Under the pieces are notes generated by a model, which did not search any database, had not been told where the DNA came from, and worked only from the letters and a program-made list of their open reading frames with translations. From the IMG/VR virus record IMGVR_UViG_2923355181_000001: a stretch of DNA of 42,980 bases. One strand, 5' to 3'. The DNA comes from a virus (lineage: Duplodnaviria > Heunggongvirae > Uroviricota > Caudoviricetes). Numbering within the stretch: position 1 is the first letter of the stretch; every line of letters starts with the position of its first letter. The translations under genes and the position numbers were made by a program. Shown here piece after piece: positions 12,777 to 17,303 of the stretch.

Positions 12777-12848
12777 CTATTTGCGCTTAAAAAGGTATTT
12801 GACCACGACCAGCACGAGACCGAATACCTCTGTCAAAGTACCGCCCAT
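12777..12848 (-). pseudogene. orphan 3'-terminal fragment (23 codons + stop) of the membrane-protein gene at 16200-16805
   Basis: Minus strand encodes MGGTLTEVFGLVLVVVKYLFKRK*, one conservative change from the C-terminus of the 201-aa protein; about 90% nt identity over about 72 bp to 16200-16271. Confidence 0.75.
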
Positions 12849-12926
12849 ATAAAACAGTTACATATGCACTTGATGACTAAGCTGGCACCAGGTTAACACC
12901 TGGCGCCAGCTTGAAGGAGACTTCAG

Positions 12927-13850
12927 TTATTGGTTTCTGAGGAAAGCGATTCTTGAAAGGGTCATTTGCGTCTGGCAGTCGACCATTTTCTTGACTTCAG
13001 CATCTGTTCCCTGCATTGAAACTTTACCGCACATAGCATCCTTAGTTTTGATCCACTGACGCTGAGAAGGCAGCAAATCTTTTTTCTTCGCCGGGGTTAA
13101 CTTGCTCCAGACGGTACTCAAATCAGAGTCGGCATTCGCAAATGCCATTCGGGACTGATCAAGGTTGTCAGCTTTTTGCGGCTGAAGTTGTGCCTGTCTC
13201 TCTATTTGCTTCTCCGCCTCATACTTAGCCTGTTCTTGCGCCCTGAGTTGCACCTGTTGTTCCGCTTCAATTTGACTCTGTTGGGCATCCTTAGCCTGCT
13301 GGATTTTCTGCTGCTCAACGATCGGGGTGATAATGGAAAGCGATGTCAGTAAAGCGGCGCCCACTGATATCGGATTATCAGTAGAGGTTTTTACAAAAAC
13401 GTTTTTCTGATCGTCGGTCGCCTGCACGGTGTAGGTGATACGTTTTGAAAAGGCGTTTGCGTTGTTCTCCAAAAACAGGCTTTCCATTTGCTTATCGAGA
13501 TTACGATTAAAATTCTTTCTGTAAGCATCTGAAAGCTGGACGTACTCGTTCGCAGATAGAGTCATCGTCACGGTCCCTTCACAAGTTTTCATTGTGCTGC
13601 CCGTGTCACTTGATGTTGTGGAGATCTCAGAGATGGCTAGTTTGATCTTGTCCAGTGTGCTTCGTTTGGTCTGATTAGTGACATCAGGGTATTTATCGAC
13701 CTGTTCAGAGAGTCCTTCATAAGCAGATTTTTTTAATAAATCCATGAGAGCTGACTGGGTTATTTCCGAAGAACAACCGATCTCATCTTTTTTGTTATCA
13801 CAGCCTGTAAGGGCAATGGCGAGTAAGAGTACTGAGTATTTTAATCTCAT
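12927..13850 (-). CDS. lipoprotein with possible C-terminal DUF1311 (LprI-like) domain
   Basis: Signal peptide and lipobox MRLKYSVLLLAIALTGC; coiled-coil Q/E-rich middle; C-terminal QRQWIKTKDAMCG...VDCQ...TLSRIAFL pattern. Confidence 0.55.
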   Translation of the reverse strand: MRLKYSVLLLAIALTGCDNKKDEIGCSSEITQSALMDLLKKSAYEGLSEQVDKYPDVTNQTKRSTLDKIKLAISEISTTSSDTGSTMKTCEGTVTMTLSANEYVQLSDAYRKNFNRNLDKQMESLFLENNANAFSKRITYTVQATDDQKNVFVKTSTDNPISVGAALLTSLSIITPIVEQQKIQQAKDAQQSQIEAEQQVQLRAQEQAKYEAEKQIERQAQLQPQKADNLDQSRMAFANADSDLSTVWSKLTPAKKKDLLPSQRQWIKTKDAMCGKVSMQGTDAEVKKMVDCQTQMTLSRIAFLRNQ

Positions 13851-15038
13851 GAATTCCCTTTAGAGTAAGGATTGGTTTTTAAGACGCGGTCTGTAATCAG
13901 TCCCGAGAGCTACAGTAAACAACGCTGAGCACTGAACGCATCACAGGTAAGGTAAAAGGTGATATCGGCAAAGGCTGTGAAACCTTTAATTCAACAGATG
14001 GGAACGGTATGCGCAGGATCCTGTAACGACGCTCCCAAAACCGGAAACCTGTAAGGCATGTTTTCGCTGCTGAACTTAATATACGAACCTGCACTATCAT
14101 GAACATATTTTATATCGTTATACCCCGAGTGATTGTGCCCGGCAATGGATAGTGTCCTGGAGGAACTATTTCTACTGTAAAAGGTAGATATTTAATTTCA
14201 GTTTTGAATTATTCCCTGCTGTTAATAACAATGGCTGTATATGGCACCGAGTAGGCATTTTTTCGCTTACTGAAGGGCAGCTGTGAGCGAGGAACAGACT
14301 TTCCCTACTTCGTTGAGAGTACACCTAGTACAATCAAGGCTAAATGATAAAAATATACAAAATATCATATTTATGATATATATAATGGCATTAATCTTAT
14401 TCTTGGATTACGTTGAAAGGGTAATATTATATTTGTGTAACATAGTTTAGATAACAATGCCGTTATGGGGGGGGGAAAGACATTTCAACATATTAGCTTT
14501 GTATCTAACGCTCATGTAGATCTCGATTTTGAACTTAAAGAACAATTATTTTTTAGAGAGCAAGGTATTTTTGGGGAACAAAAACATAAAGTAATGGAGA
14601 GAGGAGAATGTATCAAAAAATCATCGATTTAATTTAGATTGTCCGTATAGTTGGGGGTAAGTCGAATCGCTGGGCTACATGGAATATTGTGTCAAGTAAA
14701 AATATATTTCAATCTTGCAATAACCGATTGTTGAAAATAATGTCAAATCTTAATGGTGAATGGGGAGAATATAATAAACATGAGTCGATATTATGCAAAT
14801 GGATTTAAATATTTTATACCCGAAGACATAGGGTTTCGAGAGTTCGATGAGACTACTTTGAATGCTTTCGAATTTGCTGGCTAAAACATATAGGTTATAT
14901 CTTACATCTGTTTGTAATGGAGCGTAGATGCGACAAGCTACACCATAATAATCATATTATGATATATTGTTAAGTTGTTATGGCATTAAATAAAATTATG
15001 TCATTTTGTTAACCAAGCAAGAATCAAAGGACTTTTAG

Positions 15039-15737
15039 ATGGGTACGGCATTAATTTCAAGCTTTATTAGTGGTGCAATAGCTATAATCTCTATTGCTAT
15101 ATCTACTTATAATCAGAATAGAATAAACAAGCTCAATGAATCACTGGATGTAAGGAGAAAACATCAGTACTATATTGAACCGTTAATTCGCTCAGCTTCA
15201 GACTTACAAAGCCGTATTTATAATATATTAGAATTGGGGTTCATTGAAGAGTTTTATCATAATGGGAATAAGCGCCAACAAGATTATGTTATCAACAATA
15301 CTGTTTTTCTTTTTTCCCAGTTTTTTGCATGGACAGAAGCTGCCCGCATAGACATTCAATACCTTAGCCTAGAAAAAAATAAAAAAATGAGGGAGTTTAT
15401 TAGATTACAGAACAATATTAACTCATTAATCCAAACAGACGTCTTTGGTCAGTATTTTATGTTTTTCATAGGAGAGCAGAGAGCTATTGCAGAAAAGATG
15501 CTGATATCAACAGATACTGGATTTGATTGCATAGGTTACGGCAGTTTCACAAAGGAAAATTGCTTTATCAATGAGCCATTTTTTTTAGATTTAAACAATG
15601 AAGTGATAAATATGACAAGAGATATCGGAATTTATAAAGAAAGGCTAATCAGAATACAGCACGCGTTAATCGATTTAATTAATTTTCTTGATCCTGGCAT
15701 GATTCGATTTGACGGAAAAAAATATGGAAAAATATAA
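15039..15737 (+). CDS. hypothetical membrane-anchored protein in strongly AT-rich cargo
   Basis: 232-aa ORF, AAAGGA RBS, N-terminal hydrophobic helix ALISSFISGAIAIISIAISTY; codon usage and GC far below flanking phage genes. Confidence 0.6.
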   Translation: MGTALISSFISGAIAIISIAISTYNQNRINKLNESLDVRRKHQYYIEPLIRSASDLQSRIYNILELGFIEEFYHNGNKRQQDYVINNTVFLFSQFFAWTEAARIDIQYLSLEKNKKMREFIRLQNNINSLIQTDVFGQYFMFFIGEQRAIAEKMLISTDTGFDCIGYGSFTKENCFINEPFFLDLNNEVINMTRDIGIYKERLIRIQHALIDLINFLDPGMIRFDGKKYGKI

Positions 15738-15921
15738 CCCAGATGATTCGTATCAAGGTAAGTTGCTATATGTATCAATTTAATTATGGTTGGGTGAAAT
15801 TTATGTTAATAGTAGCGGAGGGTTAGTTAAAATATGCTCTCAGTGATTTTTGGATAGTTCTTTTATTTATCATTGAAAGTAAATATGTATAGCTTCAAGA
15901 TTTACAAGTGAATCTGTTTAT

Positions 15922-15955
15922 TGACAGTCCGCTTATGGCACAGAGCGGACTGTCA
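15922..15955 (+). terminator. 12-bp perfect inverted repeat, candidate terminator or protein site
   Basis: TGACAGTCCGCT-N10-AGCGGACTGTCA followed by A/T-rich sequence. Confidence 0.3.
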
Positions 15956-16199
15956 TATTAAATTTGGCTCCACGCCATAGATGTGTCAGCTCATATCTTA
16001 TCTAATACACACAATAACTTTCTCATTCTTGGAGAATTATTTTTTTAAGGGTAGGTGTTGACGTTAGAGCAAAAGAATGGTGATTTTTTTGATGTGTATT
16101 ACGTTGGAACTGATGGGAATAACTATCTGTTTTCAACGCACTGCTAATTTATCAAGGCCCTTTGATCAGGGCCTTCGAAAGACTGTTGGACCGAGAGAG

Positions 16200-16805
16200 T
16201 TACTTGCGTTTAAAAAGGTATTTTGTCACGACCAGCACGAGGCCGAATACCTCTGTCAAAGTACCGCCCATGTACAACTGTAGTGTTAAATCCTCAAATT
16301 CCAGCTTACCTGCGCCGTCGGCAATAAATACACCATTCATTATCAGAAGTTGGAAAGCAAGGATAATCAGGAACCATTTCCCGTATCGTTTTTTTAGAGC
16401 GATTTCTGCTTCAAAATCTTTGTTGTTGAGTTGTTTGCGCTCATGCTCGGTATCAAGTGAATTCACCTGTTTCACAGATGTGAACTCGGTCAAGATTTTA
16501 CTCTCAGTACGGGTGACTTGTTGAGAGGGTGTAGCAGTTGGAATTCTTTTGCTAGACGCAGCTACAGCCATTTTGCGAGCTTCGGCAGCTCTTTTTCTGG
16601 CTATTCCGCGAATACGGACAGCCGTTTTTTTGGGGGCGTGCGAAACCTTTGGCTGAGGTGAAGCTTCGTCAGGAGACTGAACCGGAGTTTCATCGTCCTC
16701 CGGCTCAACCTCTTCTGCTAACTGACGGTGTAGGTTGAGGGAATCCTTCAGTCTGCGTGCTACTTCCTGTTTGAAACGGCTGTTAAAATCGTCATCCGAT
16801 GGCAT
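16200..16805 (-). CDS. hypothetical membrane protein with charged N-terminal region and C-terminal hydrophobic hairpin
   Basis: 201-aa ORF immediately downstream of the ImmA-like gene on the same strand; C-terminal WFLIILAFQLLIMNGVFIA...VFGLVLVVTKYLF hydrophobic. Confidence 0.6.
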   Translation of the reverse strand: MPSDDDFNSRFKQEVARRLKDSLNLHRQLAEEVEPEDDETPVQSPDEASPQPKVSHAPKKTAVRIRGIARKRAAEARKMAVAASSKRIPTATPSQQVTRTESKILTEFTSVKQVNSLDTEHERKQLNNKDFEAEIALKKRYGKWFLIILAFQLLIMNGVFIADGAGKLEFEDLTLQLYMGGTLTEVFGLVLVVTKYLFKRK

Positions 16806-16814
16806 TTTAAAGCG

Positions 16815-17303
16815 TTACCCCAACCTCAAGTTCTTTAAACGATAAGTCATCGCATCGTCAGATACGCCAAAATAATGCGCCATTATATAACTTGGTTGAC
16901 CGTCAGCGTGCAGTTTTCTGACCTCATCTACCGGCATCAGAAGTTCTGCTGCGAACTTGTTTGCAAAAATTTCATCAGGATGCGTTCCGGCGCTTGCGGT
17001 TTCGCCACGTAAATCAACGTACTCATATTCATCGCTATGCGATGCTTGCCGGGCGATGTAATGCCCCAACTCATGCCCACATGAAAAACGTTGACGAACT
17101 TTGTTGTCATCACTGTTTAGAAAGATCGCTGGATCTTGATCTTTTTGTTTAATCAGTGCGCCAGAAACTTTCCCAGGAAGATCGGTAATAAAAACATCTA
17201 ATCCCATGTCGTGAGCAATTTTCGCTGGATCAACAGGGAAACCACGCCCGCACCAGAACGTGTCCAGCACTCGCCGGGCGTGCTCTCTTGGGTTGGTAGC
17301 CAT
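16815..17303 (-). CDS. ImmA/IrrE-family (COG2856-like) zinc metallopeptidase
   Basis: 162-aa ORF with HEXXH motif (SCGHELGHYIA); strong RBS GGAGGAG. Confidence 0.65.
   Translation of the reverse strand: MATNPREHARRVLDTFWCGRGFPVDPAKIAHDMGLDVFITDLPGKVSGALIKQKDQDPAIFLNSDDNKVRQRFSCGHELGHYIARQASHSDEYEYVDLRGETASAGTHPDEIFANKFAAELLMPVDEVRKLHADGQPSYIMAHYFGVSDDAMTYRLKNLRLG

What the first reader, a model, noticed from the sequence alone, without database searches (positions are those of the whole stretch)
15039..15737. Strongly AT-rich membrane-anchored orphan protein inside the island
A 232-aa ORF with one N-terminal transmembrane helix and a roughly 200-aa soluble domain rich in Ile/Asn/Phe/Tyr lies in DNA far more AT-rich than the rest of the prophage, flanked by long AT-rich non-coding stretches with palindromes. 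That composition indicates recent acquisition from a low-GC donor. Single-gene membrane-anchored proteins of this kind in prophage moron positions are frequently abortive-infection or superinfection-exclusion factors. I recognise no family.
Basis: partly seen in the sequence, partly recalled or inferred. Interest (0 to 1): 0.6.

Follow-up and report, generated by a model that had tools for sequence, protein, structure and literature searches.

The report
Standalone relative of a defence membrane protein
The AT-rich gene is real but not an orphan: it belongs to a large uncharacterised family of membrane-anchored proteins distantly related to the membrane partner of a validated reverse-transcriptase anti-phage system, and it travels between prophages as a small cargo cassette, which makes it a good but untested candidate single-gene phage-defence factor.

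Summary
The ORF (15039-15737, +, 232 aa) exists. It has one N-terminal TM helix and a cytoplasmic all-helical domain, and lies in a 32% GC trough inside a lambdoid prophage. It is not an orphan. It matches phrog_5606 full-length and is 91% identical to "ORF1, putative lysogenic protein" of phage P2-EC58. Its family has about 1,900 clusters at 50% identity across many phyla. All 47 aligned members match PADLOC's RTasTM model, which I showed is the 1TM partner of the experimentally validated "RT-nitrilase + 1TM" system (hhalign 95.7%, E=1e-8). No RT lies nearby here or in 80 other loci, so the gene is standalone. It sits in a ~1.7-kb cassette found in three contexts, including the P2 Z/fun "phage exclusion" slot. 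Related lambdoid prophages carry GIY-YIG or DUF262 cargo in the same slot. The "non-coding" upstream DNA is a decayed PD-(D/E)XK nuclease gene. The CDS is under purifying selection (dN/dS 0.10-0.25). The most likely role is a prophage-borne membrane anti-phage effector acting alone. This is inferred, not shown. A crude defence-neighbourhood test was inconclusive, and many soil-bacterial members sit among housekeeping genes.

The parts
14280..16009 (+). Mobile AT-rich cargo cassette: decayed nuclease gene, intact 1TM gene and terminator hairpin.
   Evidence: It is 86% identical over 1,741 nt to the P2-EC58 Z-region (L001 227-1956). It is 75% identical to island copy L096 over 14473-15950. Homology with sister prophages that carry other cargo stops at 14251-14286 and resumes at 15999-16178.
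14465..14884 (+). Pseudogene of a ~150-aa PD-(D/E)XK (restriction-endonuclease-fold) nuclease family.
14967..14996 (+). Promoter-like site (TTGTTA-18-TAAAAT) 43 nt upstream of the ATG; unverified.
   Evidence: The consensus scan gives 9 of 12 matches, but the region has no more such sites than shuffles do. L096 has TTGACT-17-TATATT at about the aligned position. The promoter annotated in P2-EC58 maps to ~14803-14837 and its -10 is not conserved here.
15027..15031 (+). Shine-Dalgarno AAGGA, 7 nt before the ATG.
   Evidence: Read directly from the sequence. It corresponds to the RBS annotated in the P2-EC58 record and is conserved in three copies.
15039..15737 (+). CDS of the 232-aa membrane-anchored protein (phrog_5606, the 'lysogenic protein' family), a standalone remote homolog of the RT-nitrilase 1TM partner.
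   Evidence: Supported. dN/dS is 0.10-0.25 between five copies.
15045..15110 (+). Codons for the single N-terminal transmembrane helix (residues ~3-24).
   Evidence: Hydropathy and positive-inside statistics over 47 family members. AF2 shows a continuous helix 3-65.
15922..15955 (+). Terminator-like hairpin (13-bp stem, 7 G-C pairs) closing the cassette; the U-tract is weak.
   Evidence: Found by the terminator scan. The palindrome is conserved in P2-EC58 (L001 1869-1902).
12778..12858 (.). Left copy of an 81-nt direct repeat bracketing the 3.4-kb LprI-plus-cassette segment.
   Evidence: It is 89% identical to 16201-16281. The same sequences flank the variable segment in L014 and L015.
16201..16281 (.). 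Right copy of the 81-nt direct repeat; it coincides with the 3' end of the minus-strand gene 16200..16805.

Best explanation
The ORF encodes a standalone member of a large, uncharacterised family of inner-membrane proteins. Each has a single N-terminal anchor (N-out/C-in) holding a ~200-residue all-helical cytoplasmic domain. That domain carries a dense set of invariant polar residues: DLQSR.YN, R..Y...NT.F...Q.F.W.E..R, GEQRA, C.GY and LDP. The family is a remote homolog of the 1TM protein encoded downstream of RT(UG5)-nitrilase in a validated anti-phage system, but here and in its close relatives it has no RT partner. It is carried as a self-contained promoter-gene-terminator cargo cassette that has moved between a lambdoid prophage slot, the Z/fun 'phage exclusion' slot of P2-like phages, and a genomic island. 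I infer that the lysogen expresses it as an anti-phage factor. The cytoplasmic domain would sense an infection cue, and the membrane-anchored protein would then compromise the membrane or block the infection. That would be abortive infection or exclusion, as proposed for the TM partners of DRT systems. Shown: gene, topology, fold class, family, homology to RTasTM, standalone status, mobility, purifying selection. Inferred: expression from the prophage, a defence role, and the membrane-effector mechanism.
For: Homology: the window protein matches PADLOC RTasTM at E=1.8e-5. All 47 family members match, best E=9.8e-11. RTasTM is the pFR76 1TM protein at E=5e-164. hhalign of the family against that protein gives 95.7% probability, E=1e-8, over 115 columns with shared Y-x3-(N/S)T-x-F-x3-Q-[FY]-F-x-W, EQ.xIGE and C..Y motifs. 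Both proteins are ~230 aa with one N-terminal TM.

Published phenotype of the relative: the RT-nitrilase+1TM system protects E. coli (PMC9122126). TM deletion compromises UG1/DRT1 (PMC13436386).

Location: the P2-type copy lies between the tail-fibre assembly and tail sheath genes. In P2 that is where Fun(Z), which blocks T5, lies (PMC3091744). Sister lambdoid prophages carry GIY-YIG or DUF262 cassettes in the same slot. Other members lie next to SIR2-HerA, toxin-antitoxin genes, a Mokosh-like helicase-REase, CHAT-NACHT, or DUF4238.

Standalone status: no neighbour family occurs in more than 7 of 80 loci, and no RT-like large ORF lies within 5 kb.

Functional constraint: dN/dS is 0.10-0.25 while the adjacent nuclease gene decayed. 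The cassette is present in 452 of 5,426 complete E. coli genomes.
Against: No phenotype exists for this family. The homology to RTasTM is remote: 25% identity over 97 residues, pairwise E=0.001. The mechanism of that partner is itself unknown, and it is dispensable in at least one UG5-large and many DRT1 systems. PADLOC hits among the 144 nearest neighbours were no more frequent than among 106 ORFs 6-8 kb away. Many members in Acidobacteria, cyanobacteria and Streptomyces have host-like GC and sit among housekeeping genes, with clade-level synteny. Only 7 of 2.9 million viral contigs carry the family. Promoter signals are no better than chance. Fold searches gave only generic helical bundles. 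The dense invariant polar motifs would fit an enzyme or ligand-binding site as well as a pore-former.
Confidence: 0.5

Rival explanations
1. The protein has a non-defence function. It would be a membrane-tethered cytoplasmic enzyme, ligand sensor or regulator with a housekeeping or stress role, and its carriage on prophages would be incidental cargo or lysogenic conversion of some other trait.
For: Many members lie among housekeeping genes with conserved clade synteny, for example between acyl-CoA carboxylase subunits, next to ALAD, or near histidine kinases and LysR. GC equals host GC outside Enterobacterales. There are about 20 invariant polar or aromatic residues, typical of an active or binding site. 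One member is fused to a GerE/LuxR HTH. The neighbourhood test showed no enrichment over the local control. The family is rare in viral contigs.
Against: It is homologous to a defence-system component. It occupies phage accessory slots that otherwise hold exclusion or nuclease genes. Its distribution is patchy, at about 268 of 185,579 species genomes, and it is persistently AT-rich and mobile in enterobacteria.
Confidence: 0.25
2. The protein is a classical superinfection-exclusion protein. It would act at the inner membrane to block DNA entry of incoming phages without killing the cell, in the manner of Sie or Imm proteins.
For: It is a small inner-membrane protein in a prophage. Its P2-type copy replaces Fun(Z), the P2 exclusion gene, in the same slot.
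Against: Almost the whole protein is predicted to be cytoplasmic, with only 2-4 residues outside. It is unrelated to Fun(Z): hhalign probability 0.08%. Most family members are not in prophages. Its only characterised relative belongs to an intracellular RT-nitrilase system.
Confidence: 0.12
3. The protein is an orphaned accessory module that only works together with an RT-nitrilase (UG5/UG1) encoded elsewhere in the genome, or it is a leftover of a lost RT system.
For: Its nearest characterised relative is an RT partner. P2-EC58 also carries an Abi-P2 RT at its other variable locus (PMC9508834).
Against: No RT is present in the window or within 5 kb in 80 loci. The standalone clade is far larger and more diverse than expected for remnants and is under purifying selection. 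Abi-P2 is a different RT class without a nitrilase.
Confidence: 0.06
4. The ORF is a chance or decaying reading frame in AT-rich junk DNA.
For: The neighbouring gene in the same cassette is a pseudogene.
Against: The ORF is intact at exactly 232 codons in five diverged copies, with dN/dS 0.10-0.25. It has thousands of homologs with invariant motifs and a confident AF2 fold.
Confidence: 0.02

Closest known systems
P2-EC58 Z-region ORF1, 'putative lysogenic protein' (AJ512683 / CAD54907; phrog_5606)
   Same: It belongs to the same family and the same cassette. Protein identity is 91% (full length; 92.9% over residues 23-232 by tblastn), and DNA identity is 86% over 1.7 kb including the decayed upstream gene and the terminator hairpin. 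The PHROG match is full-length at E=7e-163.
   Different: The host element and slot differ: the P2 Z-region between G and FI, against the region between the replication module and Q in a lambdoid prophage. The name is a guess from position and no function was ever shown.
1TM partner of the 'RT-nitrilase + 1TM' system (pFR76, E. coli E101, P4 hotspot; PADLOC RTasTM; Mestre clusters 85/1858 of UG5-large)
   Same: It has the same size (~230 aa), a single N-terminal TM helix, and a helical C-terminal domain. It shares core motifs, with hhalign 95.7% and E=1e-8. Both are carried by mobile-element cargo hotspots in E. coli.
   Different: Identity is only ~21-25% over the central 115 columns. The N-proximal DLQSR.YN motif and the C-terminal LQHALIDL..FLDP motif of this family are not evident in the RT partner. 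That protein is always encoded directly after an RT-nitrilase, whereas this one never is.
Drt1b, the TM protein next to ~18% of DRT type 1 (UG1) genes
   Same: It is a small TM protein accessory to an RT-nitrilase. One family member gave a weak PADLOC Drt1b hit at E=0.005. Its function is equally unknown (PMC13275509).
   Different: No significant similarity was shown for the window protein. Drt1b is RT-linked.
P2 Fun(Z) (NP_046777), lysogenic-conversion protein that blocks T5
   Same: It occupies the same slot of P2-like genomes as the P2-EC58 copy of this gene.
   Different: It is 528 aa and has no sequence relationship: hhalign probability 0.08%.
Membrane effectors of abortive-infection systems (SLATT proteins of UG17/DRT10 and CBASS, HalA of Hailong, RexB)
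   Same: The proposed logic is the same: a membrane protein that is the killing or arrest arm of a defence system.
   Different: SLATT proteins have 2-3 TM helices, and no SLATT or other Pfam model matches. No PDB sequence relative exists. This protein has one TM helix and a large cytoplasmic domain, and no partner that could gate it.

Membership tests
phrog_5606 / 'lysogenic protein' family (P2-EC58 ORF1) | Full-length sequence match to the family profile or founding member. | tested here: met
   phrog_5606 matches at E=7.1e-163 over 1-232 of 232. Protein identity to P2-EC58 ORF1 is 91-93%.
phrog_5606 / 'lysogenic protein' family (P2-EC58 ORF1) | A role in lysogenic conversion, as the name implies. 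| not testable with these tools
   The name derives from the position in the P2 Z-region. I found no experiment.
RTasTM (1TM partner of RT-nitrilase / UG5-large systems) | Significant similarity to the RTasTM profile or the validated 1TM protein. | tested here: met
   E=1.8e-5 for the window protein and 47 of 47 members match, best E=9.8e-11. hhalign gives 95.7% and E=1e-8. The relationship is remote, at superfamily level: pairwise BLASTP E=0.001.
RTasTM (1TM partner of RT-nitrilase / UG5-large systems) | About 230 aa with a single N-terminal TM helix. | tested here: met
   The comment '1 TM in protein 2' appears in Table S2A of PMC9122126.
RTasTM (1TM partner of RT-nitrilase / UG5-large systems) | Encoded immediately downstream of an RT-nitrilase gene. 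| tested here: not met
   No RT is annotated in the prophage. No conserved neighbour and no RT-like large ORF lies within 5 kb in 80 loci. It is also standalone in L003, L005, L008, L009, L011, L012, L013, L096 and L098.
RTasTM (1TM partner of RT-nitrilase / UG5-large systems) | Contributes to anti-phage protection. | not testable with these tools
   This needs plaque assays.
SLATT pore-forming effectors | Two or three TM helices and a match to SLATT profiles. | tested here: not met
   Only one hydrophobic segment is present. Pfam gives only a sub-threshold CNNM hit over the TM.
P2 Fun(Z) exclusion protein | Sequence similarity to Fun(Z). | tested here: not met
   hhalign probability 0.08%.
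Phage 'moron' (autonomous cargo cassette) | Nonessential gene with deviant base composition, its own promoter and terminator, present or absent between otherwise similar phages. | tested here: inconclusive
   Composition, presence or absence with alternative cargo, and the terminator hairpin are met. The promoter is only consensus-level and not above chance.
Defence-island gene (guilt by association) | Neighbours enriched for known defence genes relative to background. | tested here: inconclusive
   About 8-9 of 144 nearest neighbours are strong PADLOC hits, but a similar rate is seen in 106 ORFs 6-8 kb away. No genome-wide background was available.

The most novel reading that the evidence does not exclude
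The family may be an autonomous single-gene immune module and the evolutionary source of the 1TM accessory of RT-nitrilase (UG5/UG1) systems. A membrane-tethered cytoplasmic sensor with a conserved polar pocket would, on its own, detect an infection-derived cue such as a nucleic acid, a nucleotide or a phage protein, and convert it into membrane damage or growth arrest. That would be a new, widespread one-gene defence system present in about 8% of complete E. coli genomes. It would also offer a handle on what the unexplained TM partners of DRT systems do.
Probability: 0.3. Interest if true: 0.65.

Novelty: new variant of a known kind. Interest (0 to 1): 0.45.

Why it matters
The TM partners of RT-nitrilase defence systems (Drt1b and the UG5 1TM) are required in some systems and absent in others, and have no known mechanism. 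A much larger standalone branch of the same superfamily suggests the module can work without an RT. It also offers a simpler one-gene system in which to study it. The gene is common, in 452 of 5,426 complete E. coli genomes on one prophage lineage, so a defence phenotype would bear on phage susceptibility of many clinical isolates. The cassette also documents how the same cargo moves between unrelated temperate-phage hotspots.

Tried and rejected
- **Rfam** scan of 13700-16400 at permissive E found only chance-level sRNA hits. The idea that the conserved upstream DNA is an ncRNA was dropped once it proved to be a pseudogene.
- **Flanking inverted repeats**, as annotated in P2-EC58, are not supported in the window and are weak in L001.
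- **Conserved partner gene.** All-vs-all clustering of neighbours found none. The decayed nuclease is not an obligate partner, because intact copies are standalone.
- **Fusion partners** of long family members showed only a GerE HTH and weak NAL1_N-like hits, which are not informative.
- **PADLOC neighbourhood enrichment** with a local control was inconclusive.
- **Literature.** Full-text searches for 'RTasTM' returned irrelevant papers. The 2026 P2/P4 hotspot paper does not mention this family.
- **Pfam and NCBIfam** gave no family.

Full report
**1. Observation**

It lies in the deepest GC trough of the window. GC is 0.32-0.33 in 500-nt windows from 14501 to 16000, against about 0.45-0.57 elsewhere. 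The CDS is 0.32 and the rest of the window 0.49. Ile, Asn, Phe and Tyr together make up 35% of residues. Across 47 family members there is one strongly hydrophobic 19-mer starting near residue 5 (mean Kyte-Doolittle 2.4) and no second one (maximum 1.48). K+R average 0.3 before it and 2.6 in the 15 residues after it, which predicts N-out/C-in with the ~200-residue domain in the cytoplasm. AlphaFold2 on a 47-sequence alignment gave pLDDT 87 and pTM 0.79. The model is a continuous helix 3-65 (TM plus stalk) followed by a helical bundle with one small hairpin. An AAGGA Shine-Dalgarno lies 7 nt before the ATG. A 13-bp-stem hairpin follows at 15922-15955.

**2. Setting**

The window is a lambdoid prophage integrated beside tRNA-Leu, downstream of uvrC and pgsA. 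The gene lies between the replication module and the Q antiterminator, after a minus-strand LprI-family gene and before a minus-strand pair (a hypothetical membrane protein and ImmA/IrrE). The 2.2-kb region is present in 452 of 5,426 complete E. coli genomes, always chromosomal, and at 99% identity or more in 413 of them.

**3. The cassette**

Window 14280-16009 is 86% identical to the 1,988-bp GenBank record 'Bacteriophage P2-EC58 proviral Z-region, ORF1', whose CDS is called 'putative lysogenic protein'. In four complete genomes that P2-type copy lies between the tail-fibre assembly gene and the tail sheath gene. In P2 this is the Z-region, which holds fun(Z): 'cloned gene blocks growth of T5; lysogenic conversion'. 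The Z-region is one of three slots where P2-like phages carry horizontally acquired genes (PMC3091744). A third copy (75% DNA identity over 14473-15950) sits in a genomic island with AlpA and a DUF4238 gene.

Sister lambdoid prophages share the window's flanks but carry other AT-rich cargo in this slot. D217-5 has a GIY-YIG nuclease cassette, and HCP5S3_I2 has a hypothetical gene plus a DUF262 gene. Homology breaks at 14251-14286 and resumes at 15999-16178, the same borders as the P2-EC58 homology. An 81-nt direct repeat (89% identical) at 12778-12858 and 16201-16281 brackets the LprI-plus-cassette segment. The right copy is the 3' end of the neighbouring gene, which suggests a recombination scar. 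The long inverted repeats annotated in the P2-EC58 record are not supported.

**4. The 'non-coding' upstream DNA is a dead gene**

I aligned the three cassette copies. The small ORFs at 14465-14632 and 14753-14884 are protein-similar to two adjacent ORFs in L096, but are interrupted by different indels and stops. Two deletions are shared by the window and P2-EC58. Joining the two L096 frames at an A-run gives a 150-aa protein. That protein has more than 1,551 intact full-length homologs at 58-87% identity. It matches window 14474-14869 at 38% identity, E=6e-18.

**5. Family**

The protein is not an orphan.

- phrog_5606 (unknown function) matches end to end at E=7e-163.
- The word-indexed search found 290 relatives of 232-270 aa, none with a Pfam domain.
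- An exhaustive profile search found 1,908 clusters at 50% identity at E of 1e-3 or better, and 418 at 1e-30 or better.
- A scan of one genome per species found 268 relatives among 185,579 species. They come from Enterobacterales, Burkholderiales, Acidobacteriota, cyanobacteria, Actinomycetota, Bacteroidota and others.
- Two further hits are on Streptomyces linear plasmids.
- Only 7 of 2.9 million viral contigs carry it.

**6. Link to a known defence system**

PADLOC gave one weak hit, RTasTM ('DRT'), at E=1.8e-5. All 47 aligned members hit it, the best at E=9.8e-11. To find out what RTasTM is, I took the second protein of the experimentally validated 'RT-nitrilase + 1TM' system from Table S2A of Rousset et al. 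2022 (pFR76, E. coli E101, P4 hotspot). It matches the two RTasTM models at E=5e-164 and E=1e-122 over their full length.

Profile-sequence comparison of my family with that protein gives 95.7% probability and E=1e-8 over 115 columns. The alignment pairs YYIDSTRFYLCQYFCW with Y.I.NT.FL.AQ.FAW, LEQKYIGE with GEQRAIGE, and ECMSY with .C.GY. Pairwise BLASTP gives E=0.001 and 25% identity. Both proteins are ~230 aa with one N-terminal TM helix. The relationship is therefore real but remote, at superfamily level.

Published knowledge of the RT partner is thin.

- Rousset et al. call it a 'transmembrane effector'.
- TM deletion is said to compromise UG1/DRT1, but a UG5-large system works without any TM gene (PMC13436386).
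- The DRT1 structure paper notes that only ~18% of drt1 genes have drt1b, and merely speculates about a Hailong-like channel (PMC13275509).

**7. Standalone status and neighbourhoods**

In 80 loci from different species, all-vs-all clustering of ORFs within 5 kb found no neighbour family in more than 7 loci. The recurrent ones are housekeeping genes (acyl-CoA carboxylase subunits, ALAD, LysR, histidine kinase), which reflects clade synteny. No large ORF carried an RT YxDD motif.

Individual contexts include SIR2-HerA, PIN/MqsA/nucleotidyltransferase toxin-antitoxin genes, an ORC/CDC6-like ATPase, an AAA_11/12 helicase-REase and a CHAT-NACHT-TPR protein, and a degraded P2 prophage with DUF2971 and an AAA_15 pair.

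I made a crude systematic test. The 144 nearest-neighbour ORFs gave about 8-9 strong PADLOC hits: type I REase, HerA, JukB, Mokosh, PDC-S14, PDC-S37, PDC-M37B and mad2. The 106 ORFs 6-8 kb away in the same loci gave a similar rate. Without a genome-wide background this test is inconclusive.

**8. Base composition**

All enterobacterial copies have 31-35% GC, which is 7-22 points below their surroundings. These are from E. coli, Providencia, Pantoea, Citrobacter, Rahnella and Serratia, and go down to 59% protein identity. Copies in Acidobacteria, Streptomyces, cyanobacteria and others match host GC. AT-richness is thus a stable property of the mobile enterobacterial clade and does not date the acquisition.

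**9. Mechanism: what is shown and what is inferred**

Shown:
- an intact, selected gene for an N-anchored cytoplasmic helical protein;
- membership of a large family;
- remote homology to a defence-system component;
- no partner gene;
- carriage in a mobile cassette that occupies phage accessory slots otherwise filled by exclusion or nuclease genes.

Inferred, at about 0.5 confidence: the lysogen expresses it as an anti-phage factor that senses an intracellular cue through its conserved cytoplasmic domain and acts at the membrane.

The main rival, at about 0.25, is a non-defence membrane-associated enzyme or sensor. The reasons are the many housekeeping-like contexts and the enzyme-like density of invariant polar residues. 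Classical injection-blocking exclusion (about 0.12) fits the predicted cytoplasmic topology poorly. Dependence on a distant RT (about 0.06) is unsupported. A decaying ORF is excluded.

**10. Novelty and verdict**

The gene itself has been in GenBank since the P2-EC58 Z-region record. Its function is unknown, and its name is a positional guess. I found no paper that links this family to the RT-nitrilase 1TM partner or tests it. I file it as a new, standalone variant of a known kind of component (the TM partner of DRT systems), not as a member of that system, because the defining RT adjacency was tested and not met. Interest is moderate. It is a well-defined, common and easily testable single-gene defence candidate that could also shed light on the unexplained TM partners of DRT1/UG5 systems, but nothing about it is yet surprising.

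Noticed in passing
[not shown]
   Followed up: yes
window 13819-13850, 16218-16249, 17064-17095: Three perfect 32-nt E. coli type I-E CRISPR spacers match this prophage with interference-proficient PAMs. The first has PAM ATG, lies at the 5' end of the LprI gene, and is present in many strains, for example WCHEC005784 (L107). The other two have PAMs AAG and ATG, lie on the same strand, and are adjacent in the array of strain JX21CE8 (L108), which looks like primed adaptation.
   Followed up: partly
window 12778-12858 and 16201-16281: An 81-nt direct repeat (89% identical) brackets the LprI gene plus the cassette. The right copy is the 3' end of the minus-strand gene 16200..16805, and the left copy is a stranded fragment. 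The same sequences flank the variable segment in sister prophages L014 and L015. It is probably a scar or substrate of the recombination that swaps cargo.
   Followed up: partly
L014 3950-6477; L015 6307-8800 (same slot as window 14251-16178): Sister lambdoid prophages carry different AT-rich cargo (34-38% GC) in this slot. One has a small hypothetical gene, a GIY-YIG nuclease and another hypothetical gene. The other has a hypothetical gene plus a DUF262 (GmrSD-like) gene. This may be an undescribed defence hotspot of this prophage lineage.
   Followed up: partly
window 14000-16200, in other genomes (hits H2-H6, H41-H52): Some genomes have an IS1 inserted within the cassette region. About a dozen have a ~120-bp extra insertion in 12900-17300. 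I did not map the positions, so I do not know whether the ORF is disrupted.
   Followed up: no
window 16200-17303 (-): Immediately downstream, on the opposite strand, lies a conserved pair. One gene encodes a 201-aa protein with a charged N-terminal half and a C-terminal hydrophobic tail (16200..16805). The other is an ImmA/IrrE metallopeptidase (16815..17303). The pair is retained in sister prophages whatever the cargo and may be a regulatory or defence module.
   Followed up: no
window 14951-14963: A palindrome ATCATA-N-TATGAT lies just upstream of the promoter-like site. Its arms are identical in the window and in L096 (75% DNA identity overall) but degenerate in P2-EC58 (ATCATA-T-CATGGT). 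It could be an operator.
   Followed up: no
proteins P0206, P0128, P0130 (family members): A few family members are longer. P0206 (328 aa) has a C-terminal GerE/LuxR HTH domain. P0128 (557 aa) and P0130 (622 aa) have C-terminal extensions with weak NAL1_N-like hits. The HTH fusion hints that the helical domain may be a sensor in some lineages.
   Followed up: partly
L003 1303-7823 (Providencia rettgeri): The Providencia copy sits in a degraded P2-like prophage next to a DUF2971 gene. An AAA_15 ATPase plus a 375-aa partner (OLD/PARIS-like) lies after ogr, so there are two accessory slots of one remnant, both with defence-like cargo.
   Followed up: no
P2-EC58 (literature): P2-EC58 is reported to carry an Abi-P2 reverse transcriptase (orf544) at its other variable locus, while its Z-region carries the homolog of this RT-partner-like 1TM protein (PMC9508834). 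This is probably coincidence, but I did not examine it.
   Followed up: no
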